Of a stretch of DNA of 64,000 nucleotides, positions 3,120 to 53,031 are shown piece by piece. Each line of letters opens with the position of its first letter. Positions within the stretch are counted from its first letter, which is position 1. The position numbers and the translations under genes are program-made. The stretch lies in sequence record NZ_CP118918.1. One strand, given 5' to 3'. The notes beneath the pieces were generated by a model. It had not been told where the DNA came from, made no database searches, and was given only the letters and a program-made list of their open reading frames with translations. The DNA is from a plasmid.

Positions 3120-3166
3120 CCGGCACGTCCAACCAGCGGCCGTGCCACAAGGGAAAGGGAACCGCA

Positions 3167-3439
3167 ATGACTGAAACCACCTTGGCCGCAGGCGATCTGC
3201 TGACCGCCATCCCATCGCTATGGGAATCGGCTCAGATACCGCTCGCGATCATCGCCATCTTCGTTGGAGGTGTTGCGGGCGCATTCGCGCTCGTGCGCGG
3301 GTTCGGCGCCGCGATGGGCAAGGTTCTCGGCGGGGTCGCAGTCGCAGCCATCATCCTCGGCGCGGTCGGCTTGGCCGTCTCACTGAAGACCACCGTGGAC
3401 AAGCACGGTGGGGGCATCACCACCGGGCAGTTCGGCTAG
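3167..3439 (+). CDS. Small two-TM protein, possibly a VirB2/TrbC-like pilin-type subunit
   Basis: 90 aa with two hydrophobic helices separated by a short loop. It has an RBS (GGGAAAGGGAACCGCAATG) and sits directly upstream of the VirB4-family ATPase. Confidence 0.45.
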   Translation: MTETTLAAGDLLTAIPSLWESAQIPLAIIAIFVGGVAGAFALVRGFGAAMGKVLGGVAVAAIILGAVGLAVSLKTTVDKHGGGITTGQFG

Positions 3440-3505
3440 CGCCCTGCCAGGCGTCGAGAGCGCCTGGAACCGAGCTGGTGTTTACGAGAAACTGGAGGTT
3501 ATGCA

Positions 3506-6337
3506 GTGGGTGAGAACAGCTTTCGCGGTCAAACAGCTCGGGTGTACGCCGATGTGCGCGACTTTCCCATCTATGTCTCCCACATCGATGACAACACTCG
3601 GTTGTGGTTCGCGCCGTGGCGTATCTGGGACGGCGCAACCTTCCTGATCGGTATCACCTCCACGGTCTGGGCGACCCGCAAGTGGCTTGACTCCGGACAT
3701 GCCATCGCCATCGCGCTGTTCGGTCTCGCGCTGACAGCAGCACTGACCGTCGCCGCACGCCAAATCCCGGTATCTCGACCCAGCCCGCTCTACCGGATCG
3801 GCTGGCTGCTCGGCGGACTGTTGCACACCCAGCGCAAGGCAGGGATCAACGGTGAGGGCGAGGCGGCGCTATCGCCGCCCAAGGAGGTGATCGGGAATCT
3901 CAGTTTCACCTCCGGAGGTGTCTACGCAGAGTTCATCGTGGACGGACAACCCGGCGGAATGATGCCCTACGCACTCAAGGACGCGATTGCGATGCGTCAC
4001 CGACCTTTAGTGCGCCAACTTCCCTCGGGGTTGCTGCTGTGGGGCTGCTGCGTGCGCCTGGACCACCGGCGGCTGCTGCGGTGGATGCTCTCGGGCTACA
4101 CCAATGAGCCTGCGTGGGTGCAGGAAGTCCGAGACTGGGAGGACTTCTTGACCATCGAGCCGTTCTACGAGCAGGTGTTCGGCATACGCGTGCCGGTGGA
4201 CTCGGGAGCCGCTGGACGATCCGGAGTGGGCGGCCTGGCCAAGGCGGCCACCGTCGTCGCCGGCCGCGACCCCGACGACCCGCGATCACTTGCCGGGTAC
4301 CAGGAGATGTCGGCCTCGATCCTGTCGAAGATTCCCGCCGAGTTCAACGCGCGACCGGCCACCCCGCGCCAGATCCACTGGTGGTATCGGCGACGGCTGG
4401 CCATCGGTGCGGTCAACGATCCTTTCCCGCACGGTGCCGGCGGTCCTGAGCGGCTTACCGAAGCCGACTTTGCGCCCGTGGTGCCGGCGCATTTCGACTG
4501 TGGCGATCAGGAAGCCCGCAAGAAGGACCGCCGCTGGTGGCGGCGTATGGTGCCGTCACTGGCCGCCGTGCTGGTGATTCGGGGCGCCCAGCGCCTGGAC
4601 AGCTTCCAAAGCATGCTGGCCGTAGCTCAGATTCCGCGCGGCGGGTTGGCCTATCCACGTGCGGAATACCTGCTTGCCGTCTACGACGTGGACACACCTG
4701 CCGACATCGACTGGATTCAACACATTTCCACCCGCCCGGCTGAGCAGGCGCTCACGCGAATCGACCGCGCTCAGCGCAACCTCGATGATCAGGCTTTCCA
4801 ACGGGCAGGCCGTCGCTCCAGCGACAGTGACCTCATTGAGCGCTACTCCTCGGCCGAGGAGTACAACGCCAAGCTGCGGGCGTCGAAGTTGGAGCGGGAA
4901 GTGGAGGCCACGACGGTGATCGCCGTCGGGGCGCGCTCGCGGGCCGAACTCGACGGGGCCTGCCAACTACTGCAAACGCACTTCGCAGAAGACCTCGACA
5001 TGACGTTGAGTCGACGTCGCGGCAGCGCCCAGATCGGGCTGTGGCAGACCGGGCTGGCAGGTAGTGAAGAGCGCAGCCCGCGCAGCCAATTCAGCCAACC
5101 GGCGACCACCACCGACTGGGCGCGGTTCTCGCCGCTCGTATCCAGCAAGCTCGGCCACGATACCGGGATTCTGTTCGCCCGCAATCTGTCCACCCGACGG
5201 CCGACCCCTGTCCTGATCGAACCCGAGGGCGCGAGCCGTCGGCGCCAGGTACCCGGAATGCTGTTCTACGGCCCGCCCGGAGGGGGCAAATCCCAAGGCG
5301 CGAAACGGGTGGTGAACGGGCTGATTGCCCGCGGCAATCAGTGCAGCATCCTTGATCCCGGTTCTAATCCCGAGTGGGTACGTGCGCTGGCACATCTGGG
5401 GGATCGGGTGGCCGTACTTGATCCCACACGCGGTCAAGTCTCCGTCGACGGGCTGCGCATCTTTCGCCGTGAAATCGCCGTTGAGCGCACCCTTGATCAC
5501 CTACTTCCCATGATGGGTGTCGAGCCCGATGCCGAGATCGCCCGCCAGCTCCGCTTTCTGCTGCGCCCCGATCAGCGGGTCGCCGAAAGCATGGGCGCTC
5601 TGGTGCGCTACCTGAACAGCTTGCAAGGAAGCGCATACAAGGAGTACGCGGAACTCGCTGCGCGGCTGGATATGTGGGCCAACATCGACTATCTGCGGGC
5701 AATGTTCAATGAGTCGCTGCCGATACCTCCGATCGCTGAGAAGGATGCGGTGATCTGGCTGACCGGCGACCTGGAGTTGCCGACGACCTCGCAGACCGAG
5801 GATCTACACCTCTACAAGCGTCAAACAGCGCGTGCACGTGCCGGTTTAGCCATCTACGGAATGATCGCTGGGCTCACACGGGAGAGCTACACCGGACCCA
5901 ATCGTCGGCCCGGCAAGTTCGGATGGTTCGTTGCCGAAGAAGCCCGGGCGTACTTCGCGTCGCCGGTCGGTCGCGAAGATGCCACCGAGTTGATCACCCA
6001 GGGACGCAAGCAGCGATACGGCCTGATCGGCATCGCACAGCATGTCGAGTATTTCGACGGGATTCCCACCAAAGACTTGCCGACGCGGGTCATTACACCG
6101 TTCAAGGCCTCTGCGCGAGAAGAAGCGACCGAAGAGTTCAAGCGCATCGGGATTGATCCCGATGAGTACCCCGAGGTCTTGAACCTGCGTACCGCCGAGG
6201 GTCACGGTTACGCCTACATGATTGACGATGCTGGCAGCACCGGTCTAATCGACATTCTGCAGCCAGTCCAGCCTGAGCTGCGGCAGGCCTTTGATACCCG
6301 CGGCTTGGAGGACGAGGCGCTGGAGCTGATGCGGTGA
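3506..6337 (+). CDS. VirB4/TrbE-family conjugative transfer ATPase
   Basis: 943 aa with N-terminal TM helices. Walker A is present (GMLFYGPPGGGKSQGAKRV). The C-terminal region carries the VirB4 signature pair: a DEAW-like Walker B (WFVAEEARAYF) and the RK...Q motif (TQGRKQRYGLIGIAQHV). The size fits the family. Confidence 0.8.
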   Translation: MGENSFRGQTARVYADVRDFPIYVSHIDDNTRLWFAPWRIWDGATFLIGITSTVWATRKWLDSGHAIAIALFGLALTAALTVAARQIPVSRPSPLYRIGWLLGGLLHTQRKAGINGEGEAALSPPKEVIGNLSFTSGGVYAEFIVDGQPGGMMPYALKDAIAMRHRPLVRQLPSGLLLWGCCVRLDHRRLLRWMLSGYTNEPAWVQEVRDWEDFLTIEPFYEQVFGIRVPVDSGAAGRSGVGGLAKAATVVAGRDPDDPRSLAGYQEMSASILSKIPAEFNARPATPRQIHWWYRRRLAIGAVNDPFPHGAGGPERLTEADFAPVVPAHFDCGDQEARKKDRRWWRRMVPSLAAVLVIRGAQRLDSFQSMLAVAQIPRGGLAYPRAEYLLAVYDVDTPADIDWIQHISTRPAEQALTRIDRAQRNLDDQAFQRAGRRSSDSDLIERYSSAEEYNAKLRASKLEREVEATTVIAVGARSRAELDGACQLLQTHFAEDLDMTLSRRRGSAQIGLWQTGLAGSEERSPRSQFSQPATTTDWARFSPLVSSKLGHDTGILFARNLSTRRPTPVLIEPEGASRRRQVPGMLFYGPPGGGKSQGAKRVVNGLIARGNQCSILDPGSNPEWVRALAHLGDRVAVLDPTRGQVSVDGLRIFRREIAVERTLDHLLPMMGVEPDAEIARQLRFLLRPDQRVAESMGALVRYLNSLQGSAYKEYAELAARLDMWANIDYLRAMFNESLPIPPIAEKDAVIWLTGDLELPTTSQTEDLHLYKRQTARARAGLAIYGMIAGLTRESYTGPNRRPGKFGWFVAEEARAYFASPVGREDATELITQGRKQRYGLIGIAQHVEYFDGIPTKDLPTRVITPFKASAREEATEEFKRIGIDPDEYPEVLNLRTAEGHGYAYMIDDAGSTGLIDILQPVQPELRQAFDTRGLEDEALELMR

Positions 6338-8454
6338 TGTCCGCCTACTGCGCGTGGCTTTATGAGCACCCTCGTCTGCGGCGGGCGTGGCTGATCACTC
6401 AGCTCCTGTGGGGAGGCTCGATGATGGCCCTGCTGACCGCCCCGCACGCGGTGGCGGCCGGGTTCGCTGGCGCGCTCAACTGGCCCAGCCCCATCGTGGA
6501 CACCTACGACCAGCCGGTGGGCACCTATTTCATCAGCACAGTGTCGATGCTCGACGCCATCCGCACCCAAGGCAGCGACGTCAGCATTATCGATCCGGGC
6601 TCCTGGATTCCCGCACTGACCGACCGCTTCGAAATCGCCATGACTTACAGCCAACTGGCCGTCATCCTCGGATGGTTCTGCGGATTCCTGGTCATGGTGG
6701 GTGCGGTCGGGATCTGGTTCATCAAGATCGCACTGGGCTCGGCATGGTTGGGCTGGCTGGCCGCACTGGCCGCGCCTGTGCTGGTCGCCATCAACAACCT
6801 CGTCGGTGAGTTTCAGATCATCCCGCTGGCACTGATCATCTGTGTCTTCATCGGCGGAATCATCGCCTTGACCAAGGGGTTCGGGCGCGGCGCCGGGGTG
6901 ATGTGCAGCGGATTCCTGGTGATCTTGCTGATCGGGTTTTTCCTCAACGACCCGGTGAAGGAACTCGGTGACAACGGCCTGCTCGCCGCCGGCCGCGCCA
7001 TCGGATTCGAGCTCTCGCTGGGTATCGCGAACAATGGCAGCTTCGACCCCTCGGGTAACGCCGAAGGCCAGGTCGAAGTGCTCTCGCAATGGATGGCCAC
7101 CACCCTGATTCGCCACCCCATTCAGATCGCCAACTTCGGCGGCGTGATCGACAACATTGACGGGTGCGCACAAGCCTGGAACGCCGCACTCAATGCATCG
7201 ACCGTCCTGACTCCCGCGACTCAGGCACTCGCACCGGCGGGAGCCCACGACGGTCCAGTTCAGGCCATGCGGGCGTGCGGCGCAAGCGATGCCTACGCCC
7301 ACGCCCACTTCCTCAGCGGCGAGACGATCGGGCTGATGTTCTTCATCAACTGCGTCGTGCTGGTGGTGCTGATGCTGCTGTGCTACATCGGCTGCGAAGT
7401 CATTCGGATCGGATTCAAGGCGTTCTGGAACGTGCTGGTGCTGGTGCCCGCCGCCGCGGTTGCGGTCGCACCAGGACCGCAGCGCGAGTTCGCCAAACGC
7501 ACCGCCATCAAACTGATTGTCCACGCCTTGGAAATGCTGTTCGCCACTGCGGCTTTCGGCATTGTCTTGGTGCTGATGTCGCGAGTATCGACCGGGAAAC
7601 TCGACGGGTTCGAGATCCAGCACCCCATCGCGATCCTGCTACTCATGCTGCTGTTCGCCGGCGGCGCGGTCTTCGGGTTCAGGGCGCTGATGCGAGGCTT
7701 CGGCGATCGGGGACTGCCGGGGCCGATGTCGGTGCTGCGCAAGACCGCTGCTGTCGGGGCCGGCCCCATGAGCTTCTACCCCGCGATGCGCGACATGGGC
7801 CGCTCCATGCGCCGCGACATCAACGCCGACGGGGTGGGTCTGCCAAGTTCAGGTAAGCCCGGCGATGAGGGAACCCGCGCCCCGGCAGCCAAGGGCCGCA
7901 AAGCACATCCCAATCCCGGCATCCCCGCCGAGAGTGGAGCATCACCGAGCACACCACCGCCATCGACAACCACACCCACCCCAGGCCCCGCACCCGCTAC
8001 GGGCGCACCCGCGGGCGGATCGGCCGCTGCCAGCACCGCGGCGCGCGGAGCAGCCACCGGCACTGGCAGTGCAGCGGCCGGCACAGGCGCGGCAGGCGGC
8101 GCTGCTGCGGGCGGCGGCGCGGCGGCCGCCGCGGCAGCCGGACCCGCCGCCCCTGTAGTCGCTGGAGCCGTGGTCGCGTCGAAGGTGATCGAACGTCAGC
8201 AAGCCAACAAAAGCCGCGACAACGGACCTGCTGCCCACGCCACCCCGAAGTCAGGCACAGGTTCTTCGGCCGCGCCGGGACGCGCTGGTGCTGCACCCAC
8301 CAACCGTCCCCCCACACCGCCGAATAGTCACACCGAGACGCAGCCGACACAGCAGCGCCCATCGGCGAAGCAATCTCCGGCGCCGAGTTCGAGCACCCCG
8401 AACGAGTCGCCCGGCCGCAAACCCCAGCCCCCGCAGGACGGCAGGACATCATGA
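6334..8454 (+). CDS. Polytopic inner-membrane protein, VirB6/TrbL-like, with a low-complexity Ala/Gly/Pro-rich C-terminal tail
   Basis: 706 aa. The ATG overlaps the previous stop (ATGATG). There are more than 8 predicted TM helices over residues 1-480, followed by about 200 aa of AGAP-rich low complexity. Confidence 0.6.
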   Translation: MMSAYCAWLYEHPRLRRAWLITQLLWGGSMMALLTAPHAVAAGFAGALNWPSPIVDTYDQPVGTYFISTVSMLDAIRTQGSDVSIIDPGSWIPALTDRFEIAMTYSQLAVILGWFCGFLVMVGAVGIWFIKIALGSAWLGWLAALAAPVLVAINNLVGEFQIIPLALIICVFIGGIIALTKGFGRGAGVMCSGFLVILLIGFFLNDPVKELGDNGLLAAGRAIGFELSLGIANNGSFDPSGNAEGQVEVLSQWMATTLIRHPIQIANFGGVIDNIDGCAQAWNAALNASTVLTPATQALAPAGAHDGPVQAMRACGASDAYAHAHFLSGETIGLMFFINCVVLVVLMLLCYIGCEVIRIGFKAFWNVLVLVPAAAVAVAPGPQREFAKRTAIKLIVHALEMLFATAAFGIVLVLMSRVSTGKLDGFEIQHPIAILLLMLLFAGGAVFGFRALMRGFGDRGLPGPMSVLRKTAAVGAGPMSFYPAMRDMGRSMRRDINADGVGLPSSGKPGDEGTRAPAAKGRKAHPNPGIPAESGASPSTPPPSTTTPTPGPAPATGAPAGGSAAASTAARGAATGTGSAAAGTGAAGGAAAGGGAAAAAAAGPAAPVVAGAVVASKVIERQQANKSRDNGPAAHATPKSGTGSSAAPGRAGAAPTNRPPTPPNSHTETQPTQQRPSAKQSPAPSSSTPNESPGRKPQPPQDGRTS

Positions 8455-9146
8455 CCGCTACCGGCATCTATCTCGGCTCAGAACTGAACACCACCGGGCG
8501 TGCTTACTGGGCTATGTCACGGATGGTCAATCACGGTTGGTCGGTTCTGAGCTTCGGACTCGACTACGGTGGGTGGCTGCGGCTTCGCACCCCATCGGGG
8601 GTGGAGTTGCCCGTGGCTGCCGATCCACTTGACCACACACCGTCCTCGCAACAGCCGGTACCGGGCCAGCCCGGTGCGCCGCTGCTGCCGCTGCACGCCT
8701 GCCGCTTGCTCCACCAATGCGCACAGCACCGCGGCGATGATGCGCACGGAGGCGACGACGCCGCCCGCACCATCGCCGCCCTGCTGCGCCTGGGCGTGCC
8801 CGCTGGGCGCGCGCATGCCGACGATGCGCGATGCCCGTGGTATCTGCCTCACGGGGCCGTGCAACCGGCGGCATCGGTGCGCCGCGCGTACTGGGCGGCG
8901 ACCACACTCACCGATGACTACGGATGGCGTATCACTGGTATCGATGCGCGAGGGTTCACCGCGGTCGGCCCCTACGACGCCGAGGAAGTCCGGTACCCGT
9001 GCGCTGCCGCGGCTGATTCCACCACCTCGGCACGGCTCGCGCGGCTGCTGCCTCATGTGCACAGCGACGGAGGGACCGACGAACTGCACCGACTGATCGT
9101 GGAACACCAGCAGGACCACCAGAGCAGGGCGGTGGCGCGATCATGA
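8451..9146 (+). CDS. Hypothetical protein
   Basis: 231 aa. The start overlaps the upstream stop (ATGA). I recognise no motif. Codon usage is consistent with its neighbours. Confidence 0.45.
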   Translation: MTATGIYLGSELNTTGRAYWAMSRMVNHGWSVLSFGLDYGGWLRLRTPSGVELPVAADPLDHTPSSQQPVPGQPGAPLLPLHACRLLHQCAQHRGDDAHGGDDAARTIAALLRLGVPAGRAHADDARCPWYLPHGAVQPAASVRRAYWAATTLTDDYGWRITGIDARGFTAVGPYDAEEVRYPCAAAADSTTSARLARLLPHVHSDGGTDELHRLIVEHQQDHQSRAVARS

Positions 9147-9964
9147 CCAGCCGCACTCTTCCCAGCGACCTTCCCCTGCTGCGCGTCCACGGTCGGGTCC
9201 GGGGGCACGCTCGGGTCACCGACGTGCGTGCCGCCGGTCCCGACATGTGTGGTGCTCCACACCGGCTAGGTGCCGACGTTGCGTCTCCCGCGCCCTGTGC
9301 CAGTGGCTCCGCTGCTTATCGTGCGGCGGCGGTGGTCGAGTATGCGGTGCGCCTCGCAGGAAGCGTTGACGAACTCGCACAGGCCCGTCGGGTCCTCACC
9401 GCAGCGGACTGTGACTGTGCACCTGAGGATTTCGGGTGCGTCCGACGCGTGCTGCAGGACGTTTTGGACACACCCGACCCGTGCGCAGAACACGGGTTGG
9501 CGATGGGTTTGACTGTGCGCAGGCCGTGGGCGTCAATGCTGCTGGTATCGAGTCAGATCGGCGGGAAGAACGTCGAGAATCGGACAGATTCCACCGACTA
9601 TCGCGGTCCGGTACTGATTTACGGTGGTACCCGCATCGACCAGGCTGGCATCGAACTCGGTGAGCAGCTGGGTATGCGAGAGATGGCCTTTCATTGCGAC
9701 CAGCAAGGCTGGCTCGGCGCAACCGTACTTGTGGACGTACATCGGGCCCAAGGGTGCTGCGCCCCGTGGGGGACGACTCCGTTTAACCCCGGCCAGCCCA
9801 AGTATCACTGGGTGTTCGAGTCTCCCGCACGACTGGCTGCGCGGCCATGGCACGACAACGCCAAGGGGTTTGACGGGCTGCGGCCGGTGTCGTGGTCGGC
9901 CCTGGTCAGCCGCAAGGCTGCACGGTACGCCCGGCGACAAGGAGTGTCCGGTGCATCCAGGTGA
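9143..9964 (+). CDS. Cys-rich protein with a C-terminal ASCH-like (PUA-fold) domain
   Basis: 273 aa. The C-terminal half (RRPWASMLLVSSQIGGKNVENRTDSTDYRGPVLIYGG...HWVFESPARL) matches the ASCH domain pattern from memory. The N-terminal half has several Cys pairs. Confidence 0.45.
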   Translation: MTSRTLPSDLPLLRVHGRVRGHARVTDVRAAGPDMCGAPHRLGADVASPAPCASGSAAYRAAAVVEYAVRLAGSVDELAQARRVLTAADCDCAPEDFGCVRRVLQDVLDTPDPCAEHGLAMGLTVRRPWASMLLVSSQIGGKNVENRTDSTDYRGPVLIYGGTRIDQAGIELGEQLGMREMAFHCDQQGWLGATVLVDVHRAQGCCAPWGTTPFNPGQPKYHWVFESPARLAARPWHDNAKGFDGLRPVSWSALVSRKAARYARRQGVSGASR

Positions 9965-10727
9965 GGGCGATGAGCAGGGCTGCTGGCAACAGTGGCGCAC
10001 CGACCGTGACCGCGACGAGCAACGTCGGGTAGCCCAGCAACGGCGCGACCGCAAGGTCCGCAACAAGCTCAGTCGCGTCGTGGACGTCCTTGACGAGCTG
10101 CTCGGCCCCGGTGAGCAGCAGCCCCGTTGCCTCGGTGAGGTCGCGGACTTCTATGGCGTGAGCCAGTACCGGCTCTCAGCGGTGCTTGAGAAGCACCGCG
10201 ACGAGTTCAGCCGAGATGGTTGGCAACCGCATCACCGTGGCCACGACGGGCACGACCTTTGGACTGACCGTGCTGTCGTACGAGCAGGACTGCTACTGGA
10301 AAAGTCCTCTGTAGCAGCCCATCTGCGGCACCTGCTCGGTGTAGGAGATATTCCGCTGGTGTACTCCCAAAGTGATGCCCGCCTGGCTGAATGCCGGCAG
10401 CTCTACAACAAGGCTCTGACGGTCGTTGCTGATATCCACGGCGAGTCCAGCACCGACGATCTGTGGCGAGCAATGCAGGGTGCGGATCGGTACGACCTGA
10501 TGGCGATGGTGATGACCTTGGCCTCCCTGACCCCCTACGACCGTCCCAGCTTGGGGCAGTGGCTACGCGACATCAGCGCCCTCACCACAAAGGACGGCAG
10601 TATCGCTCGCGGTCTGGCGCTGCTGATCCCTCAACGTCAAGCTATCGATGCGCGAAAACTCAAAGAGTCCGGGTCCGCACGATCGCACAGAGCGCGGGCC
10701 GACGACGAAGGAGCGGTGTGCCAATGA
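9951..10727 (+). CDS. Hypothetical protein
   Basis: Reassigned to GTG at 9951. The longer track ORF 9624..10727 overlaps the previous gene. About 258 aa. Its stop overlaps the ATG of the next gene (ATGA at 10724). Confidence 0.4.
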   Translation: MHPGEGDEQGCWQQWRTDRDRDEQRRVAQQRRDRKVRNKLSRVVDVLDELLGPGEQQPRCLGEVADFYGVSQYRLSAVLEKHRDEFSRDGWQPHHRGHDGHDLWTDRAVVRAGLLLEKSSVAAHLRHLLGVGDIPLVYSQSDARLAECRQLYNKALTVVADIHGESSTDDLWRAMQGADRYDLMAMVMTLASLTPYDRPSLGQWLRDISALTTKDGSIARGLALLIPQRQAIDARKLKESGSARSHRARADDEGAVCQ

Positions 10728-11560
10728 GTTCCGCGTCCCACGCTCGCTCACCGATAGCCGAACGGCGTACTCGCGCTGAGCAGACCGAACGGCAGATTGC
10801 CTGCCTGTTACCTCCGCACACCCACTACGTTCAACCACTCTCGGGAACGCTGGAAGTTCTGCTTCACAAGCCGTGCAGCCCGCTAGAGACGGTCAATGAT
10901 GTGGATTCCGAGCTGGTCACGTTCTGGAGGGTCCTACGCGATCGGCCCGACGACCTTGCGCGGGCCTGTTCGTTGACCCCGCACTCGCGGGTGGAGTTCA
11001 CCTCCGCGATTAGCGGTTCCCGACTTCCTCGTGACACCAACGAGGTGGAGGTTGCCCGACGAGTATGGGTCCGGCTCAATCATAGTCAAACTGGTGCTGC
11101 GCGGATGCGTCCGCAATGGCAGAACACCGCAGCGCACCGCAGGACGGCGCCGGGCCATGATACTGCCATTGCTCAGATGACCGAGGTCGCCACCCGAATC
11201 AAGAGGGTGAGCCTGGAATCGGCCGCTCCTGTGGAGCTGATCGACTCGGTTGCGCGCCAACCCGGGGTGTGCATCTACCTCGACCTGCGAACCGAGGTCT
11301 TCGGCGCCCAGGGCGCCAGTCTCATCCATCACGCACGCGTCGACCCGACGCAGGTACTTCGGGCCGCGTCGAAGGCGAAAGCTGCCGTCGTGATCCGCGC
11401 CGAGCGCGATACGGTAGCGCACAGTCCTGTACACAGCTGGGCGTGCACGCCAGTGGGGGAGCACCGGGATAGCGCCACGGTGCACTTGTGGTCAAACCGT
11501 GTGCTGTCGATGCAAGAGCGTCTTTTCGACCTTGGCGACTACGGGTGGGCAGCAACGTGA
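10724..11560 (+). CDS. Degenerate D12-class (Dam-like) N6-adenine methyltransferase homolog, predicted catalytically inactive
   Basis: 278 aa. The D12-class layout is recognisable (HYVQPLSGTLEVL...VNDVDSELVTFWRVLRD). The FxGGK motif is absent. Motif I FxGGG is degraded to PLSGT. The catalytic DPPY is replaced by DLRT (GVCIYLDLRTEVF). Confidence 0.6.
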   Translation: MSSASHARSPIAERRTRAEQTERQIACLLPPHTHYVQPLSGTLEVLLHKPCSPLETVNDVDSELVTFWRVLRDRPDDLARACSLTPHSRVEFTSAISGSRLPRDTNEVEVARRVWVRLNHSQTGAARMRPQWQNTAAHRRTAPGHDTAIAQMTEVATRIKRVSLESAAPVELIDSVARQPGVCIYLDLRTEVFGAQGASLIHHARVDPTQVLRAASKAKAAVVIRAERDTVAHSPVHSWACTPVGEHRDSATVHLWSNRVLSMQERLFDLGDYGWAAT

Positions 11561-11895
11561 CCACAGCCGACACCATCGCTATTCGCGAGCAGCTGGTCGC
11601 GGTGTTGCGGGCCGCCGAAGCACCGATGACTAGCGCCGAGCTGGCCAGCGTTCTACCGTGGCAGACCCACCGTCTCGATGTGGGCTGCGAGCTGGTGTGT
11701 CACGCACCTCGCCGGCCCACGGCGATGCGGGTGGTCGAGTGTCATCGAACCTGGCATCTGGTGAGTCGTCCGCGGTCCTCACAGGACTCGCGCACAGGGA
11801 TATATCGACATCTGAGGAGCTTGGCCCGTGCAGGGACCATCCGATCGATTGCATTGGGGCCGAGAAAAGTTCAGTGGGAGTTCGTAGGTGAATAG
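11557..11895 (+). CDS. Hypothetical small protein, possibly a winged-helix DNA-binding protein
   Basis: GTG start overlapping the previous stop. About 112 aa. No motif recognised with confidence. Confidence 0.35.
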   Translation: MTTADTIAIREQLVAVLRAAEAPMTSAELASVLPWQTHRLDVGCELVCHAPRRPTAMRVVECHRTWHLVSRPRSSQDSRTGIYRHLRSLARAGTIRSIALGPRKVQWEFVGE

Positions 11896-11905
11896 GAGAG
11901 TGACG

Positions 11906-12157
11906 ATGAGCAGGATCACCGTGTACACCAAGCCCAACTGCGTGCAGTGCACCGCGACGTTCAAGGCGCTCGACAAAGCGGGCATCACCTACGCGAAAGT
12001 CGACATCAGCGTCGATGCCGAGGCCCGCGACTACGTGATGGCCCTGGGCTACCTGCAAGCCCCCGTCGTGGTGGCCGGCGATGAGCACTGGAGCGGCTTC
12101 CGACCCGACCGCATCTCCGAAGTCACGGCTCCAGCACTCGCGCAGCTATCCATGTAG
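11906..12157 (+). CDS. nrdH: NrdH-type glutaredoxin-like redoxin, copy 1
   Basis: 83 aa. MSRITVYTKPNCVQCTATFKALDKAGITYAKVDISVDAEARDYVMALGYLQAPVVVAGDEHWSGFRPDRI carries the CVQC active site and the NrdH signature WSGFRPD. RBS GGAGAG upstream. Confidence 0.85.
   Translation: MSRITVYTKPNCVQCTATFKALDKAGITYAKVDISVDAEARDYVMALGYLQAPVVVAGDEHWSGFRPDRISEVTAPALAQLSM
11918..12128. repeat. Left arm of an inverted nrdH repeat pair; the partner lies at 26200-26425
   Basis: About 200 bp with 4 mismatches against the reverse complement of the nrdH copy 2 coding region. Similarity stops at the gene boundaries. Confidence 0.85.
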
Positions 12158-12189
12158 CGGTACAAACACTAGCGGGAGAAGAAGACCTC

Positions 12190-13398
12190 ATGACAGTCGT
12201 GGCGACCCCGTTTCAGGTCGGGGAACACGTGGTAGACGATGTGCATTGCCTTGAGGGACAACAGATTCTCCGAGAGGCCAAAGCAGCGAGATCACGCCCG
12301 CTGTGTTTGTGCCAGCCCGCCGGGGTACAGATGTATATCGCTGCCGCTGGCGACAGCCTCATTGTCAAACGAATGCCCGGCACGGCGGCCGCACATGACC
12401 ATCGGTGCCGGTCGTGGCTGCCTCCCAGCGAGCTATCGGGCTATGGCGCCGTTGCCGACCGGTCGATCGTTGACAACCCTGCCGACGGAACAACCACGCT
12501 GCGACTGGGATTTTCGCTGTCGAAGTCCGGCAATCGTGCCGCTCCAGAGCCTTCCGGATCGCCGGCAAGCGCGGTGCAGTCGGACGGCAACAAGTTATCC
12601 CTACGCGCTGTGCTGCACTATCTCTGGGATGAGGCGGAACTGACGACGTGGCACCCGGGCTTTGCGGGGCGGCGGCCGTGGGGTGTGGTGTACCGCCGGC
12701 TCCGGGATGCCGCCGATGGCAAGCTAGTCCGCAAAAGCCCCTTCGCCGCATCGTTGTTCATCCCGGAGCCCTTCTCGGCCGACTGCAAGGCCGAGATCGA
12801 GCAACGCCGGATTAAGGCTTGGGCTCCAGCGCGTAGACAGCCGGGGAAGCCCACCAAATTCCTGATCGGCGTGGGCGATATCAAGGCGATTGAGCCAGCC
12901 GCCCACGGGTTCAAGATGCAGGTCCGCCACCAGCCGGGCCACCCCTGGTTTCTCGATGAAGACCTGTACCGAAAAATGACCAAGCGCTTCGCCACAGAGC
13001 TGGAACTCTGGCAGATGGCTGATGCAGGTGACGTGCGGTTGGTGGCGGTAGCTACCTTCTCCGTGTCTCGGGCTGGTTACGCCAACGTAGAACAACTCTC
13101 TTTGATGACGACCGATCACAACTGGCTACCCTTCACCAGCGATGCCGAGCGCACCCTGCTGACAACTGCAATCGCAGATGATCGGTGTTTCCGGAAGGTA
13201 TTGCCTTACAACGGGAGTTCCACAGCCTTGGCCTCTTTAATCTTCACCGACACCGCCCCGGCGATAGCCGCATTCATCGATCGCTGTGGAGGCGAGGACG
13301 ACGACGACGACGAATCGATCGCGGGGCTTCCGGTCTGGAACTGGCGTACCGATGAAGATATGCCGGATTTGCCGTCACCTCTCGACGGTTCGGAATGA
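12190..13398 (+). CDS. Hypothetical 402-aa protein translationally coupled to a Dam methyltransferase
   Basis: RBS GGGAGAAGAAG. Conserved Cys/His cluster (CLCQP...HDHRC). Acidic tail (GGEDDDDDES). The stop overlaps the ATG of the Dam fragment (ATGA at 13395-13398). Confidence 0.55.
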   Translation: MTVVATPFQVGEHVVDDVHCLEGQQILREAKAARSRPLCLCQPAGVQMYIAAAGDSLIVKRMPGTAAAHDHRCRSWLPPSELSGYGAVADRSIVDNPADGTTTLRLGFSLSKSGNRAAPEPSGSPASAVQSDGNKLSLRAVLHYLWDEAELTTWHPGFAGRRPWGVVYRRLRDAADGKLVRKSPFAASLFIPEPFSADCKAEIEQRRIKAWAPARRQPGKPTKFLIGVGDIKAIEPAAHGFKMQVRHQPGHPWFLDEDLYRKMTKRFATELELWQMADAGDVRLVAVATFSVSRAGYANVEQLSLMTTDHNWLPFTSDAERTLLTTAIADDRCFRKVLPYNGSSTALASLIFTDTAPAIAAFIDRCGGEDDDDDESIAGLPVWNWRTDEDMPDLPSPLDGSE

Positions 13399-13607
13399 CC
13401 CCTTACCAGGTTGGAACAAACGCATTGTCAGCAACTGCCTTACGTCCGCCGTTCGCCTACTTCGGCGGTAAGCAGAAGATCGCCGTGGACATCGCCGAAC
13501 TGCTAGCAGGCCATAGCCACTACGTGGAACCGTATGCTGGCGGACTCTCAGTATTGCAACTATCAATCACTATGGCCGTCCACTCACCCGAACCTGATGC
13601 CACGTGA
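13395..13607 (+). pseudogene. N-terminal fragment of a canonical D12-class Dam N6-adenine DNA methyltransferase, truncated by an IS21-family insertion
   Basis: The 70-aa ORF carries the D12 signature motifs FAYFGGKQKIA and HYVEPYAGGLSV. Homology stops at about 13566. An istB remnant follows. Confidence 0.6.
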
Positions 13608-13649
13608 ACAGCGTTGCGCCGGACCCCATTGGGCCGTCAAATCAGACAT

Positions 13650-13939
13650 CATTCAACTGACTCTTGAGACAAGAGCTGGGCTACATGGAACTGGATCGCC
13701 GCGGCGCCGAGCTGCTGTTCCAGGTGCTCACCGAACGCGAAGAGAAAGCCTCGGTGGCCATTGCGTCAAACGAAAGCTTCTCCGGGTGGACCAAAACGTT
13801 CACCGACCCACGGTTGTGCGCAGCCATCGTCGACCGACTCACCTTCGGCGGCAACATCATCGAAACCGGCACCGACTCCTTCCGCCTAGCGCACACCCGC
13901 GCCAAGACCAGCAACCAGAACCAGCCAACCGGTGACTGA
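13650..13939 (+). mobile_element. IS21-family IstB helper-ATPase gene remnant, C-terminal about 90 codons only
   Basis: ELGYMELDRRGAELLFQVLTEREEKASVAIASNESFSGWTKTF...DRLTFGGNIIETGTDSFRLAH matches the conserved IstB C-terminus. There is no istA and no N-terminal istB. A GC dip occurs here. Confidence 0.7.
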
Positions 13940-14006
13940 GGATCTGCTCATCAAGCAGATCAGCTGCACCAGCGCTCCTCCGCCATGAGCCTCCACGGAC
14001 CCCTTG

Positions 14007-14423
14007 CTAGGTAACCAGCTCGGCAGCATTTCCGGTTGCTGGCGACGGTTCAGCCTCCCAGACAACGCACATGGGCAGTGTCCCAGTATCGAAGAACTCG
14101 CGAGCCGCTTGAAGCATCACACCGTGGTCGACCAAACACCGAGGAAAGAAGCCGACCGTGGCATCACCGCGGGCGAACTCCACTTCACCGCCGCCGGCAT
14201 CACCATCTCCCACACTGTGAAGCGGCGATTGGGATCGATCGTTGTCGGCAAACAGCAGCAGCCCGCCGCTTTGATGCCCCACCCCCAGCGACAAGGTTCC
14301 CGCCGAGCCAGCCACGCTCACCAACACCGGCGCAGACCCTGATTTCGCCAGTGACTCAAGACGAGACTCCAGCTCTTCAGCATCGTTGACGTGCACTTCC
14401 TGGTCATCCCAACGGAGCAACAT
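14007..14423 (-). CDS. Imm1-family polymorphic-toxin immunity protein with no cognate toxin gene nearby
   Basis: 138 aa. The pattern EEL..L..L...P.LVSV.G..G.LSLGVG...G.LLF.D......PLHSVG........EVEF..G.....FP...V.....L.AAREFF.TG.LP..V.W matches the Imm1 family as I recall it. Confidence 0.6.
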   Translation of the reverse strand: MLLRWDDQEVHVNDAEELESRLESLAKSGSAPVLVSVAGSAGTLSLGVGHQSGGLLLFADNDRSQSPLHSVGDGDAGGGEVEFARGDATVGFFPRCLVDHGVMLQAAREFFDTGTLPMCVVWEAEPSPATGNAAELVT

Positions 14424-14626
14424 TCCTCAATTATCCGTGAACGCGATCAAAGCGCCACCCGCTCCTCGAAGCACACCAACTCGGCGTCAGCTGCCCGGGT
14501 GACTCCCAAATTCGTGAGCACAATCGCCTCCAAGGACACCCTGGCGACTCCGAAATTCGTGATCAAACGACTCCCGAATCAACGATCAAAACCAGCCGCA
14601 ATCAGCGCGGAATAGGGCTTCCGCAC

Positions 14627-15067
14627 ATGTCGTACCCGCAGCGGACGATGGGGTACATGAACGAGAACAACAGCAACCGGTGTGTGATTCGCATTCTGGG
14701 TTTAGTTGACGGGACGCCAACCGATTTCGACGGCCAGTATGTGGTTGAGTACGACCCGAGCAGGACCGGCACGCAGCCAGTGACAGGTAAACCCATGCCG
14801 GTATTCCATCTGGTGACCACCCCCGATATCAGTCAAGCGACGCGGTTCACTCCCGACGAGACGGTCGACCTGTACCGCGCCGTAGACCAACGTAACCCGA
14901 TCCGGGCTGATGGTGAACCGAATCGCCCTCTCACTGCGTTCAGTGTGGAGACCGACACCCTTGCGGCGGCGCTGCCGCCTGCGGGATGGCACGTCGATCC
15001 GCACAATTCGCGCTACTGGCGCTGGTGGGACGGTACGGCCTGGACCAGCCATATCGCGGCGCGATGA
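14627..15067 (+). CDS. Hypothetical protein with a C-terminal DUF2510 motif
   Basis: 146 aa. The C-terminus GWHVDPHNSRYWRWWDGTAWTSH matches the DUF2510 signature, which is common in mycobacterial membrane-associated proteins. Confidence 0.5.
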   Translation: MSYPQRTMGYMNENNSNRCVIRILGLVDGTPTDFDGQYVVEYDPSRTGTQPVTGKPMPVFHLVTTPDISQATRFTPDETVDLYRAVDQRNPIRADGEPNRPLTAFSVETDTLAAALPPAGWHVDPHNSRYWRWWDGTAWTSHIAAR

Positions 15068-15124
15068 TTCGGCAGTAGCGCAGCCGGGGACGTTCACGGC
15101 GTCGAGCTGCGTGTTCACAGGTTC

Positions 15125-18100
15125 CTACCCACCTCGGCTGAATCCCTCGTCACGGTGAGCGGCGTTCCACATGCGGGTGTGGAGATCATGGGCGGTGGTG
15201 TTGCGCTGCTGGGCTTTTCGGTGGCGTTGCAGGGCGGTGGTGATGGCGGGTGTGTGGTGGTCGGGGTGTAGTCCGGCGGCTTGGGTGAGGGCTGCGTTGC
15301 TGTCGGGGCTGGCGTCGAAGTGGTTGATGCGGCCGGTGGCGGCGGTGAGCACTGGCGACCACCGCAGTTCGGTGTGTAGCAGTTTCAGTAGTGGGGCGGC
15401 CGGTGGTGGTGGCCAGGTGGCGGTGTTGGTGTCGAGCAGGATGATCCGGGCGTGGGCGGTTGCCGCGGTCTCGGTGAGGTCGGCGATCGTTTCGGGGGAA
15501 ATGTGTTCGGCGCGGTCGATGACGACGATGGTGCCCGGTGCGCTGTCGTGCAGGTCCAGGGTGGCGGCGTCGATGACTGTGTTGGCGATCGGGGACAGGT
15601 CCGCATTGTCACAGATGGTGGCGGGAGCAGCCCAGATCAGCGGACGCTGCGCGTCGTGGGCGGCGCGTTCAAGGTGTTTCATCATGGGCAGCAGCGCGGC
15701 CCGGTCGGAGGCGTGCGCGGCGGTCAGCACGAACGGTGCATCGGTAAGCCGTCGTAGGCGGTCGGTGTCGATGTCGGGGTGTTCGCTGATCGGCAGTCGC
15801 TCTTGGAAAGCATGTTGACCGGCAGCGTCGAGCACCCGCAGTTCGGTGTCGATGCGGGGCAGCAGCTCGGTGATGTGTTCGGCGGTGCTGCGCTGTGCAC
15901 GCGCGAATGCCTGTGCTGCGGCGAGCTCGGCGCGGTGGAGCTGGTCGCGCAGCGCTGCGCGGTCGGCGCGATGTCGGGCCAGCAGTGTGTCATCGTCGGC
16001 GCGGCATCGGCGCAGCAGTGCGTCGGCGTCGGCGTGGGTGACGATGTGCTCGCTGCCGCCGGCCGCGGCGGCGCGGGCTGCGGTGGCTTCGTCGAATGCG
16101 GGATGGAACTGTTCGGCGGGGCTGGTTGGGGGCAGCTGGTAGCTGGTCAGGAAGTTCAGGTGCTGGGTGGCCGAGGCGATATCGAGGGGGTCGGCGTCTG
16201 GGTCGGCGCGCAGGGTGTCGAGTTCGGTGCGGGCGTGGCCGATGAGTTCGAGGGCTTCGGCGTAGGTGGTTTCGGCGTGATGCCATTGGTCGAGCACGGC
16301 TTCGACGCGTGCCAGGAAAGGCCGGTCGGCGTCGGCCGCGGCGCGCATGCGCCGCAGTTCGTCGGTGGCGGCCAGGACGTGGGGTCCGCCACCGGCGGTC
16401 ACGTGGGCGGCCAAGGCGCGTACCTGGGCGTCGGCGGCGGCGTAGCGGTCGCGCAGCGCGTGGACGTCGGCGCGGTGGGCGGCCAGCGCGGCGGCGGGGC
16501 TGGGCCGCACGGTGCTCAGGCTGTCGAAGTCGATCCCTGTATCGGGGGTGAAGTAGTCGTCGGCGTGCTCGGGTGGGGGCAGTTGATCGTCGGGGGCGGT
16601 GGGCTCGGTGAGGTCGTAGTCGTCTAGTCCGAGTGCGGCGGCAAGGTTGTTGGGGTCGGCCAACACGTCGTCGTGAGCGTGCTGGCGCCCCGGTGGTGTG
16701 TTCTCGATGTCGGGGTGCAGATGGGCGAGTTCTTCGTGTTCCTCCGGTGTCAGGGGCGCGGTGTCGGGCAGGGGAATGTCGTGGTCATAGGGGTCGGCGG
16801 TGGTGAACACCTCGATCGAGTAGGTGAGCAGTCGGGCGTACTCGTCGGGCCGTAAATGGTGGGTCAGGTGGGCGTCGGCGTCATAGAGATGTTCGGCGGC
16901 CACATGCAGCAGATCGCGCGGTGTCCACTGGTCGGGGTCGGCGTTGCCGATCGCGGACACCAGTGCGGGGAAGGCGGGATCGGCGGCGATGGTTTCGGCC
17001 AGTTCGGTGCCGAACACGGTGTGCAGATCGGGTAGCCAGTCCGGGCGCAGCCCACCGTTGGCGGTCTCCAACACCGCTGGTGTGAGGGTGCCGCACAGTC
17101 GCCACCACAATGCGGCGGCGGGCAGTTCGTCGGGCAGCGGGCGCTCAGCGGCGACGGTGCGTACGAGTTGGGTGATGTTGACTCCGGTGCGCGCGGCCGC
17201 GGCCAGGTGGTGGGCCAGCTGCGGCCAGTAGGGGTCGTGGCGGATGTGCGGGTTGATGGAGTCGATGAGGGTGTCGTAGCGGTTGGTGGTGGCATCAGCG
17301 CCGATGAGTTCGGCGGCGCGTTGTTCGAGTCCGCGTTGGGCGGCGCGGGTGCGGGCGGGGTATTGCTCGGCGCCGGCGATGCGGGTGTCGTTGTCCTCGA
17401 CGGCGGTTGCGGCGCGATACACGGCCAGCTCGGCAGCCAGTTCAAGGTCTGTGCCGACCAGCGGTCGTGCCCATCGCGGCGCGGTCGCTGCGCTCCACTG
17501 GCGTGCGGTGGCGGTGACCTCGGCGGCCAGGTCGGTGACCCGCTGTGCGCGGGCGGCCAGGTAGGTGTGCCACTGCGGGTCGGCGGCCAGACGTTCGGGG
17601 ATGGCGGGCAGCCAGGGCAGTGGGCCGGCGCCACCGGAGTGTGCACCGGTCGGATCGAGGCGCCAGTCGATGACCGCGGCTGGGTCGGCGGCGTTGTCGA
17701 ATCCGCCGGAGGCGACCACTTTGTCGAGCCGTTTGAGGGGGTGGATGCCGGCGGCGGCGATCAACGCGAGGTGCTGGCGTAGCACCGGCCAGGCGGTAGC
17801 GGTGGTCAGTCCGGGCACGAGTTTCTCGGCGTGGGAATCCAGCTCGGCGTGCTGGGCGGGGCTCAGGCGTGATTCGGCGGCGGTGCCGACGGCGTGGGCG
17901 TACATCTGGGTGGCGGCGGCCAGGCGGGCAGCCGGGTCGGTGGCGGCGCGGGCCGCACTGGTGGCCGAGACTTGCGCAGCATCGCGGGCCAGGGCACGGG
18001 TCAATACGTCCACGGCGGTGTCGGGGTGGGTGGCTTTCGGCGACAGCACGCGGTGGGGGTCGTGCTCGGCGGTGGAGAAGTAGATGTGGTTGCCGTGCAC

Positions 18101-29041: not shown

Positions 29042-29791
29042 CTAGAGGCTGAGGCCGTGGCTGGGCGGAGCGAGAGACTTGGCCCACCGGCGTTCTTGGT
29101 CAGTGACCTGTTCTGTTGAGCGAGGTTCTACGGTGTCCAGCAGCAGCGCTGTGAGGCGGCCGTACTGCCCGGTGCTGTGCCCGTGGTAGCGGGCGCCGAT
29201 GAACTCTTCCCGACGTGCGAGGAGCTGCACGCCATCGAGGGCGTAGCCGTATTTGCGGCATACGGTGGCCATCAGCATGGTTTGGCTGCGCGTGTTGCCT
29301 TCACGAAAGGGATGGACCTGATCGAGTTGCCCCCAGTGCCGGGCTATCGTCGGGATAAACGATTGTGGGGCAAGGTTTGCGGGGTCACTCAATGCGTGCT
29401 GGAGTTGGGCAAACACAGCAGTGGCCTGCTCCTCTACGAGACGCCCCGCTGGGTAGCGGTAGGTGACCCATGGAGCGGACCGGTCGTCGGGGGCGAAATT
29501 GACGACATCGCGCCACTGCTTTGCCATCGCGTTCTCCGGAACAACTCGCGTTGTTCCGGCCCACGCGTACACGTCCTGGAAGATGCGGTGGTGCACGCGG
29601 CGGTAGTAATCGAGGTCGACGGTCTCGGGAAGCGCGGAGTGGTCATCGAGGATGATGCCGCGCATGCGCGGCGCGACGGCATGCGCTTCGGCAACCGCTA
29701 GGTCGGGGTAGCTCTTGATGCCGAATTTGTTCTTGAGCACGCCTGGCGCATCAGGCCAGAAGTAGCTATCCCACGTGTCGTAGGACGTCAC
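29042..29791 (-). CDS. Fic-family protein, putative AMPylating toxin
   Basis: 249 aa with a canonical Fic motif, HPFREGNTRSQ. Confidence 0.8.
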   Translation of the reverse strand: MTSYDTWDSYFWPDAPGVLKNKFGIKSYPDLAVAEAHAVAPRMRGIILDDHSALPETVDLDYYRRVHHRIFQDVYAWAGTTRVVPENAMAKQWRDVVNFAPDDRSAPWVTYRYPAGRLVEEQATAVFAQLQHALSDPANLAPQSFIPTIARHWGQLDQVHPFREGNTRSQTMLMATVCRKYGYALDGVQLLARREEFIGARYHGHSTGQYGRLTALLLDTVEPRSTEQVTDQERRWAKSLAPPSHGLSL

Positions 29792-53011: not shown

Positions 53012-53031
53012 CGCATCTGACCGTGTGAGTC

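What the first reader, a model, noticed from the sequence alone, without database searches (positions are those of the whole stretch)
10724..13939. A degenerate Dam-like pseudo-methyltransferase sits inside the conjugation operon, while the canonical Dam copy downstream is truncated by an IS21 remnant
Two D12-class adenine-methyltransferase homologs occur within 3 kb on the same strand.
- The complete homolog (10724-11560) has lost motif X (FxGGK) and motif I (PLSGT in place of FxGG). Its catalytic DPPY is DLRT. It is therefore unlikely to methylate DNA, yet its ORF remains intact, so it may have been repurposed, for example as a DNA-binding or regulatory factor.
- The downstream copy (13395-13607) has perfect FGGK and EPYAGGLSV motifs but ends after about 57 codons, where an IS21 istB fragment begins.

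An intact enzymatic copy destroyed by an IS, beside an intact non-catalytic paralog, is an unusual configuration for a plasmid leading or anti-restriction region.
Basis: partly seen in the sequence, partly recalled or inferred. Interest (0 to 1): 0.6.

Follow-up and report, generated by a model that had tools for sequence, protein, structure and literature searches.

The report
Dead Dam-like protein in conjugation operon
A family of mycobacterial conjugative plasmids carries, inside its DNA-transfer operon, a Dam-like protein that has lost its catalytic motifs yet is kept under purifying selection. A working Dam gene carried as cargo nearby has been destroyed repeatedly, here by an IS21-type insertion sequence.

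Summary
Both observations are real.

ORF 10724-11560 (278 aa) is a true D12/Dam-fold homologue. It is about 40% identical to PF02086 proteins, and its AlphaFold model matches E. coli Dam, DpnM and T4 Dam. It lacks motif X (GGK), has a degraded motif I, and carries DLR where DPPY should be. It is not a decaying gene:
- The same degenerate state is shared by a single clade down to 37% identity.
- The ORF is intact in 16 of 16 plasmid loci examined.
- dN/dS is about 0.2 in both halves of the protein.
- It always sits between the same two small genes in a TcpC/VirB4 operon, joined by 4-bp start/stop overlaps.

Related pRAW-like operons have both neighbouring genes but not this one, so it is a lineage-specific insertion or a loss in those plasmids.

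The downstream Dam (13395-13556) retains only codons 1-54. An IS21-family right end abuts the last 21 bp of dam at 14594|14595. A later deletion removed dam codons 55-336 and the left part of the IS. The intact 343-aa Dam is variable cargo, disrupted independently three times.

The protein is most likely a non-catalytic DNA-binding accessory factor. That function is inferred, not shown.

The parts
10724..11560 (+). psDam: a 278-aa Dam-fold (D12) protein lacking motifs X, I (partly) and IV
   Evidence: Homology. Fold. Motif alignment. Purifying selection.
9143..9964 (+). p273: 49% identical to pRAW-like proteins that carry a precomputed DUF4326 hit; its C-terminal half is weakly ASCH/PUA-like
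   Evidence: 49% identity to L085 6198-7004, which is annotated PF14216. Profile hit to TTHA0113 (1wk2) at E=0.011. phrog_3193.
9951..10727 (+). p258: a mycobacteria-restricted protein (phrog_2286). It may contain a small winged-HTH domain. Its stop overlaps the psDam start (ATGA).
   Evidence: The fold matches are not significant.
11557..11895 (+). A 112-aa winged-HTH-like protein. Its GTG start overlaps the psDam stop (GTGA).
   Evidence: Weak HTH_20/HTH_11 hits. Orthologue in pRAW-like operons at 43% identity. Sequence.
2172..9146 (+). Upstream genes of the same operon: TcpC-like (2172-3119), VirB4-like AAA_10 ATPase (3506-6337), p706 (6334-8454) and p231 (8451-9146)
   Evidence: Pfam hits. 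Overlapping ORF boundaries. Synteny in 15 loci.
11888..12157 (+). NrdH-like glutaredoxin, the first gene of the variable cargo module
   Evidence: PF00462 E=8e-15. Presence varies among loci.
12190..13398 (+). DUF1173 protein. Its stop overlaps the dam start (ATGA).
   Evidence: PF06666 E=3e-116.
13395..13556 (+). 5' remnant of a canonical Dam gene (codons 1-54, with motifs X and I intact). The ORF reads on to 13607.
   Evidence: PF02086. 89% identity to Dam343 of L001. Breakpoint.
13557..13660 (.). Unassigned filler between the dam breakpoint and the istB fragment
   Evidence: No match to L001 or to the IS21 element of L091.
13661..13939 (+). istB remnant (IstB residues 184-275 only)
   Evidence: PF01695 E=3e-20. 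tblastn gives 91% identity to IstB of pTY66_01.
14007..14423 (-). Imm1 immunity-protein gene, lying between the istB remnant and the IS right end (a likely passenger gene)
   Evidence: PF14430 E=4e-10. Position.
14500..14594 (+). Right terminal repeats and right end of an IS21-family element, ending ...TCAAAACCA
   Evidence: Matches both ends of the IS in L091: 5462-5556 direct at 80%, and 1196-1241 inverted at 93%.
14595..14615 (+). Last 21 bp of the dam gene, including the stop codon
   Evidence: Collinearity with L001 resumes at 11046, and the dam stop is at 11066.
14627..15067 (+). DUF2510 protein
   Evidence: PF10708.
15125..21037 (-). MobF/TrwC relaxase-helicase, convergent with the operon
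   Evidence: PF08751 E=1e-76 and AAA_30.

Best explanation
ORF 10724-11560 encodes a pseudo-methyltransferase. It descends from the actinobacterial Dam (D12) subfamily and keeps the whole Dam fold, including the N-terminal Rossmann strands, motif II and the helical/hairpin DNA-reading domain. It has lost the AdoMet/catalytic apparatus: GGK, the Phe of motif I, PPY of DPPY, and SGY.

Its position between p258 and a small winged-HTH gene of a TcpC/VirB4 mating operon is lineage-specific, through insertion there or loss from the pRAW-like plasmids. It lost catalysis early, and has since been kept as a translationally coupled core gene of the plasmid family.

It most likely acts without catalysis, as a DNA-binding accessory factor of transfer or establishment. 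It could work alone or with the two putative DNA-binding proteins that flank it.

The downstream canonical Dam is a separate, dispensable cargo gene. In this plasmid an IS21-family element inserted 21 bp before its stop codon. A deletion then removed dam codons 55-336 together with the left part of the IS.

What is shown: homology, fold, motif loss, purifying selection, synteny and the IS junction. What is inferred: loss of methyltransferase activity, DNA binding, and any role in conjugation.
For: Homology and fold
- 1167 homologues, about 40% identical to PF02086 proteins.
- The AlphaFold2 model (pLDDT 81) matches Dam, DpnM and T4 Dam.

Motif loss confined to one clade
- 14 of the 120 nearest homologues lack DPPY, GGK and EPFxG together. 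Of the other 106, 105 keep DPPY.
- The clade is monophyletic in a neighbour-joining tree.
- A third, deeper member (P0143, 37% identity) sits in the same p258-psDam-wHTH context and has 'DMRPG' in place of DPPY.

Selection
- The ORF is intact in 16 of 16 loci.
- dN/dS is 0.15-0.37, similar to neighbouring genes.
- dN/dS is about 0.2 in both the 25-135 and 181-278 regions.
- 59 residues are conserved in both groups, mostly in residues 25-132.
- Ten new clade-invariant residues appear: R14, Q37, H48, L188, R189, Q196, G197, P208, R225 and V253.

Operon context
- The order TcpC-VirB4-p706-p231-p273-p258-psDam-wHTH is constant in the loci long enough to show it.
- ATGA and GTGA overlaps and a Shine-Dalgarno sequence link the genes. 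No internal promoter or terminator was detected.
- pRAW-like operons have p273, p258 and wHTH but no psDam.

Independence from the active Dam
- Dam343 is intact in L001/L006, L005 and L007.
- It is absent from L003, L004, L012, L013 and L015.
- It is broken in three different ways: in the window, in L002/L008/L011, and in L009.

IS junction.
Against: - No experiment exists, and neither DNA binding nor lack of activity has been measured.
- The Asp of DPPY, motif II and the Gly of motif I are retained, so residual AdoMet binding cannot be excluded.
- The new clade-invariant residues could form a different active site.
- The related pRAW-like operons work without this gene, so it is not a universal part of the transfer machinery.
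- The identities of the flanking proteins as DNA binders rest on weak hits.
- The DNA-reading hairpin differs from the canonical enzymes at conserved positions (T130 to P, G131 to Q, R122 variable), so the ancestral specificity may be lost.
Confidence: 0.55

Rival explanations
1. It is the non-catalytic subunit of a heteromeric methyltransferase, in the manner of METTL14 with METTL3. It would supply DNA binding or allosteric activation to the active plasmid Dam encoded 1.8 kb downstream.
For: Both genes lie in the same operon and strand in this window and in L001, L005, L006 and L007. The DNA-reading half is the best conserved part of psDam.
Against: psDam is intact and under selection in plasmids with no second D12 gene nearby or on the record: L003, L004, L012, L013 and L015, and CP020810, which has only one place matching Dam343. 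It is also intact where Dam343 is broken, in the window, L002/L008/L011 and L009. Solved D12-family enzymes act as monomers (background knowledge, not tested here).
Confidence: 0.1
2. It is still an enzyme. It would use the Dam fold with migrated or new residues for a different reaction or substrate, for example another nucleic-acid modification, or AdoMet binding as a sensor.
For: Ten residues are invariant in the clade but differ from the canonical invariant residue. Several lie at former motif positions: R14, Q37, H48, R189, Q196/G197 and R225. The former catalytic half is as constrained as the N-terminal half. D59, D187 and G41 are retained.
Against: The motif IV loop is three residues shorter and lacks the aromatic residue that stacks on the flipped base. 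Motif X is gone. The loop at 194-204 and the N-terminus are predicted with low confidence. No known enzyme signature was detected.
Confidence: 0.15
3. It is a dead gene kept only as a translated spacer. The reading frame would be preserved because the downstream wHTH gene depends on translational coupling, not because the protein does anything.
For: There are 4-bp start/stop overlaps on both sides.
Against: Coupling would preserve an open frame but not the amino-acid sequence. dN/dS is about 0.2 throughout, and 80 columns are invariant across subclades that are 45-49% identical. A confident Dam fold is still predicted. pRAW-like operons couple p258 directly to wHTH without it.
Confidence: 0.05

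Closest known systems
D12-class (alpha-group) N6-adenine DNA methyltransferases: E. coli Dam, T4 Dam, DpnM, PF02086/TIGR00571
   Same: Same fold and the same domain order: Rossmann core with an inserted helical/hairpin DNA-binding domain. Motif II is present. There is 35-49% identity to the actinobacterial members, and the closest structural matches are in this family.
   Different: It has no GGK, a degraded FxG, and DLR where DPPY should be on a shorter loop. SGY is replaced by R-x-x. It falls below the Pfam and TIGRFAM thresholds.
The plasmid's own cargo Dam (the 343-aa protein of pSMC-8_2, truncated in this window)
   Same: Same actinobacterial Dam subfamily and the same operon strand. The two are 41-44% identical over residues 12-194.
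   Different: Dam343 has all the motifs plus a Cys-rich C-terminal tail. It is 50-63% identical to the canonical enzymes. It is accessory and has been lost repeatedly. psDam is a long-branch, monophyletic, fixed lineage and not a recent duplicate.
METTL14-type pseudo-methyltransferases (MT-A70 family; background knowledge)
   Same: A methyltransferase fold kept under selection after loss of the catalytic motif, with the nucleic-acid-binding role retained.
   Different: A different methyltransferase family. METTL14 is an obligate partner of an active paralogue, whereas psDam persists without one.
Orphan and anti-restriction methyltransferases of plasmids and phages
   Same: A Dam-type gene carried by a conjugative element close to the transfer genes. 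The PADLOC MTase_II and oMTase models recognise the family.
   Different: Those proteins act by methylating DNA. psDam lacks the catalytic motifs, and a location in the leading region is not established.
IS21-family insertion sequences (istA-istB with multiple terminal repeats)
   Same: An IstB C-terminal fragment and a right end with repeated GACTCC-AAATTCGTGA motifs ending in CA. These match both ends of an intact element in pTY66_01.
   Different: Only the right part survives. istA, IstB residues 1-183 and the left end are missing. An Imm1 gene lies between istB and the right end.

Membership tests
D12-class N6-adenine DNA methyltransferase (PF02086 / TIGR00571), for ORF 10724-11560 | Sequence homology and fold of the family | tested here: met
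   phmmer gives E down to 1e-44 against PF02086 proteins. PADLOC MTase_II scores E=2e-21. Foldseek matches Dam, DpnM and T4 Dam at E=5e-10 to 1e-5.
D12-class N6-adenine DNA methyltransferase (PF02086 / TIGR00571), for ORF 10724-11560 | Scores above the curated family thresholds | tested here: not met
   No Pfam hit at E<=0.1. TIGR00571 gives 16.8 bits against a cutoff of 114.85.
D12-class N6-adenine DNA methyltransferase (PF02086 / TIGR00571), for ORF 10724-11560 | Catalytic motif IV, (D/N/S)PP(Y/F/W/H) | tested here: not met
   'YLDLRT' aligns to 'YVDPPY' with a three-residue deletion. A regular-expression census found no such motif in the clade.
D12-class N6-adenine DNA methyltransferase (PF02086 / TIGR00571), for ORF 10724-11560 | AdoMet-binding motifs X (GGK) and I (EPFxG) | tested here: not met
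   'AERRTR' replaces 'YFGGK'. 'YVQPLSGT' replaces 'YVEPFAGS', and only the Gly is kept. Motif II (ND) is kept.
D12-class N6-adenine DNA methyltransferase (PF02086 / TIGR00571), for ORF 10724-11560 | AdoMet-dependent methylation of adenine in DNA | not testable with these tools
   This needs DpnI/DpnII or long-read methylome assays.
Pseudoenzyme (a homologue of an enzyme that lacks the catalytic motifs but is maintained by selection) | Catalytic motifs are lost, while the ORF stays intact and under purifying selection across divergent lineages | tested here: met
   Intact ORF in 16 of 16 loci. dN/dS about 0.2. The same degeneracy is seen in three subclades down to 37% identity.
D12-class Dam, for ORF 13395-13607 | Complete enzyme with motifs X, I, II and IV | tested here: not met
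   Only codons 1-54 are homologous, covering motifs X and I. The remaining 849 bp are replaced.
IS21-family element | istA transposase, a complete istB ATPase, and two terminal inverted repeats | tested here: not met
   Only IstB residues 184-275 and the right terminal repeats are present. It is a remnant and not a mobile copy.

The most novel reading that the evidence does not exclude
This would be the first described D12/Dam-family pseudo-methyltransferase: a domesticated Dam that reads DNA without writing. It is fixed in the mating operon of a family of mycobacterial conjugative plasmids. It could occupy the ancestral target sites on plasmid DNA, for instance to shield them or to control transfer genes. 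Catalytic Dam copies on the same plasmids are lost again and again, which may mean that adenine methylation itself is disfavoured in these hosts.
Probability: 0.3. Interest if true: 0.65.

Novelty: new variant of a known kind. Interest (0 to 1): 0.5.

Why it matters
Public annotation calls members of this clade 'DNA adenine methylase' (for example P0008 to P0011). Methylome or anti-restriction inferences drawn from that name would be wrong.

A conserved catalytically dead Dam in a transfer operon is a tractable case of enzyme-to-binder domestication in bacteria. It also marks an uncharacterised three-gene block (p258-psDam-wHTH) in mycobacterial conjugation systems, whose accessory factors are largely unknown.

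The contrast between a fixed dead copy and a repeatedly destroyed live copy gives a testable question: what cost does adenine methylation carry in these hosts?

Tried and rejected
- Direct PDB sequence searches with the ORF or with the clade profile found almost nothing. A mixed profile was needed for the transitive alignment.
- Pfam, NCBIfam and PADLOC gave nothing for p231, p258, p273 or p706.
- The p258 profile against the PDB hit only designed scaffolds, which I regard as spurious.
- The p258 AlphaFold2 model (pLDDT 68) gave no significant fold match. The top, non-significant hits were MerR/RacA/BldC-type winged-HTH domains.
- I asked whether canonical relatives elsewhere in Actinomycetota share the p258/p273/wHTH context. 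Of 68 such loci, none carries p258 or wHTH and only one has a weak p273 match, so the association is specific to this plasmid family.
- I tested the recent-tandem-duplicate idea for the two Dam genes. It is rejected: psDam is a long branch and is not sister to Dam343.
- GATC is not avoided in the window (413 observed, 316 expected). This probably reflects codon usage and says nothing about specificity.
- Literature searches for D12 pseudo-methyltransferases, and for a methylase in pRAW-type plasmids, found nothing relevant.
- The translational-spacer idea is rejected on the dN/dS evidence.


Full report
**Context.** The window is plasmid-like mycobacterial DNA. Bases 9600-13556 are 95.5% identical to pSMC-8_2 and to an SMC-4 plasmid, and 81% identical to plasmid djl-10_1.

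Genes on the + strand from at least 3506 to 13607 form one tightly packed operon:
- TcpC-like (2172-3119)
- VirB4-like AAA_10 ATPase (3506-6337)
- p706, p231, p273 and p258
- the Dam-like ORF
- a 112-aa winged-HTH-like protein
- NrdH
- DUF1173
- a Dam fragment

Nearly all neighbouring genes overlap by 4-14 bp. No internal promoter-like or terminator-like site exceeds chance. A 1970-aa MobF/TrwC relaxase (15125-21037) converges on the operon. 'Inside the conjugation operon' is therefore justified. 'Leading region' is not established, because oriT was not located.

**The upstream homologue is real and really degenerate.** ORF 10724-11560 has a GAAGGAG Shine-Dalgarno sequence and an ATGA overlap with p258. 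All homologues start at the same Met, so the longer GTG ORF starting at 10463 is not the gene.

Curated models fail on it. Pfam gives nothing, and TIGR00571 gives 16.8 bits against a cutoff of 114.85. Other evidence is clear:
- phmmer finds 1167 relatives. From the 15th hit onward they carry PF02086, at about 40% identity.
- PADLOC MTase_II matches at E=2e-21, but only residues 22-178. The same model covers residues 20-273 of the intact plasmid Dam.
- An AlphaFold2 model (pLDDT 81.4, pTM 0.80) has as its 24 significant PDB matches only D12-family structures: 7m6b, E. coli Dam, DpnM and T4 Dam.

The motif changes come from alignments with canonical actinobacterial enzymes. They are confirmed transitively against DpnM, 7m6b and E. 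coli Dam:

| Canonical | This ORF |
|---|---|
| PPFxYxGGK | SPIAERRTR |
| YVEPFAGS | YVQPLSGT |
| YVDPPY | YLDLRT (loop three residues shorter) |
| VVLSGY | VVIRAE |

Motif II (ND) and the Asp of motif IV remain.

**It is a conserved pseudoenzyme, not a decaying gene.**
- Among the 120 nearest homologues, exactly 14 lack DPPY, GGK and EPFxG together. Of the other 106, 105 keep DPPY.
- The 14 form one monophyletic long branch. They fall into two subclades that are 45-49% identical.
- An exhaustive profile search added a third, deeper member, P0143. It is 37% identical, has 'DMRPG' for DPPY and no GGK, and lies in the same p258-x-wHTH context.
- In the window plus 15 related loci the ORF is intact every time.
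- Pairwise dN/dS is 0.15-0.37, within the range of the neighbouring genes.
- The median dN/dS is about 0.19 for residues 25-135 and 0.21 for the former catalytic half, 181-278.
- 59 residues are conserved in both the dead and the live groups. They lie mostly in residues 25-132, which cover the first Rossmann strands, motif II and the helical/hairpin DNA-binding domain.
- Ten positions carry a new clade-invariant residue where the enzymes have a different invariant one: R14, Q37, H48, L188, R189, Q196, G197, P208, R225 and V253.

This pattern indicates a retained fold with a remodelled former active site.

**Genomic logic.** The order TcpC-VirB4-p706-p231-p273-p258-psDam-wHTH is constant in the plasmid loci long enough to show it.

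Sixty-eight loci encoding canonical relatives elsewhere in Actinomycetota lack p258 and wHTH, and only one has a weak p273 match.

More distant pRAW-like operons have the p273 orthologue (49% identity, DUF4326 hit). It is followed directly by p258 and, in one of them, by the wHTH orthologue (43% identity) and then DUF2637. None has a Dam-like gene. psDam is therefore a lineage-specific presence between p258 and wHTH (an insertion there, or a loss from the pRAW-like plasmids) that is fixed in every locus of this family examined.

The family of p258 is small and restricted to mycobacteria. Its model shows a confident helical N-terminal domain whose best, non-significant matches are MerR/RacA/BldC-type winged-HTH domains. 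The C-terminal half of p273 weakly resembles the ASCH/PUA-like protein TTHA0113.

**The downstream Dam.** In pSMC-8_2 the DUF1173 gene is followed, with an ATGA overlap, by a 343-aa Dam that has every motif. In the window, collinearity with that plasmid runs to 13556 (dam codon 54) and resumes at 14595, which is 21 bp before the dam stop.

The 1038 bp in between contain:
- 104 unassigned bases
- IstB residues 184-275
- an Imm1 gene on the opposite strand
- at 14500-14594, repeated GACTCC-AAATTCGTGA motifs ending ...CA

Those motifs match both ends of an intact IS21-family element in pTY66_01, directly at its right end and inverted at its left end.

The simplest history is this. An IS21-family element inserted 21 bp before the dam stop. 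A deletion then ran from inside istB leftward to dam codon 55.

**The active Dam is dispensable cargo.**
- It is intact in L001/L006, L005 and L007.
- It is cut 12-13 nt upstream of the window's breakpoint, with different filler, in L002/L008/L011.
- It is cut at about residue 207 by another insertion in L009.
- It is absent from subclade-2 plasmids.

That makes three independent disruptions against three intact lineages, while psDam is never disrupted. This argues against psDam being an obligate partner of the active enzyme.

**Mechanism.** Four things are shown: Dam fold, loss of catalytic motifs, purifying selection on the whole protein, and fixed translational coupling within a transfer operon.

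The rest is inferred. The protein probably no longer methylates DNA, because the aromatic residue and prolines of motif IV and the AdoMet-contacting motif X are gone. It probably works through binding, most plausibly to DNA through the conserved reading domain, together with or alongside the flanking small putative DNA-binding proteins.

Three rivals remain: a partner subunit of the active Dam, a neo-enzyme using the new invariant residues, and a mere translated spacer. They are less well supported, for the reasons given in their own entries.

**Novelty.** I found no description of a D12-family pseudo-methyltransferase, or of this gene in mycobacterial plasmids. Public records label clade members 'DNA adenine methylase'. 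It is a new variant of a well-known kind and not a new kind of system. It is moderately interesting, and it is directly testable.

Noticed in passing
window 13557-14594: The IS21-family remnant seems to carry a passenger gene. An Imm1 immunity-protein ORF (14007-14423, minus strand) lies between the istB stop and the right terminal repeats. The intact relative in pTY66_01 (L091) also carries about 1.7 kb of extra genes, including a TetR regulator, between istB and its right end.
   Followed up: partly
L002 10205-10330; L009 12968-15225; window 13543-13556: The cargo dam gene has been disrupted independently three times in sister plasmids. Two of the breakpoints are only 12-13 nt apart, just after motif I. 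This could reflect a hotspot, selection to keep the first 50 or so codons, or coincidence.
   Followed up: partly
L001 10035-11066 (the intact counterpart of window 13395-13556): The intact cargo Dam has a Cys-rich C-terminal tail (CPVC...CSPAC) that most relatives lack. It is always preceded by a DUF1173 gene with an ATGA overlap. In L005 the DUF1173 gene is split by a 6.6-kb insertion.
   Followed up: no
window 9143-9964: p273 is 49% identical to proteins that carry a DUF4326 hit in pRAW-like plasmids. Its C-terminal half looks ASCH/PUA-like (TTHA0113, E=0.011). PUA-like domains often read modified bases, which may be relevant next to a Dam-derived protein.
   Followed up: partly
window 11895-15125, and the same interval in L003, L004, L012: The gap between the wHTH gene and the 3' end of mobF is a cargo hotspot. 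It holds NrdH-DUF1173-Dam, Imm1 and DUF2510 here, a Type ISP restriction-modification enzyme in L004, and almost nothing in L003.
   Followed up: partly
window 23962-25503 (-): A 513-aa ORF matches the C5-cytosine DNA methylase family only in its N-terminal 184 residues (profile positions 2-164 of 324). This may be a second incomplete or unusual methyltransferase on the plasmid, on the far side of mobF.
   Followed up: no
window 29042-29791 (-), 33317-33946 (-): A Fic/DOC family protein and a staphylococcal-nuclease-like protein are encoded between the transfer region and the metabolic cargo.
   Followed up: no
window 44177-60761 (-): Metabolic cargo: a P450-flavodoxin-FAD/NAD reductase fusion (1064 aa), an alcohol dehydrogenase, a flavin monooxygenase, an acyl-CoA ligase-type AMP-binding enzyme, a second P450, and a PapA-like acyltransferase.
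   Followed up: no
P0146 (metagenomic contig L093): Another relative has 'DPPT' instead of DPPY, no GGK, and 'VVLRSP' for 'VVLSGY', but still scores as PF02086. It may be an independent or intermediate degenerate lineage. The contig is too short to show context.
   Followed up: partly
window, whole: GATC occurs 413 times against 316 +/- 14 expected from dinucleotide shuffles. There is no avoidance. The excess probably reflects codon usage.
   Followed up: no
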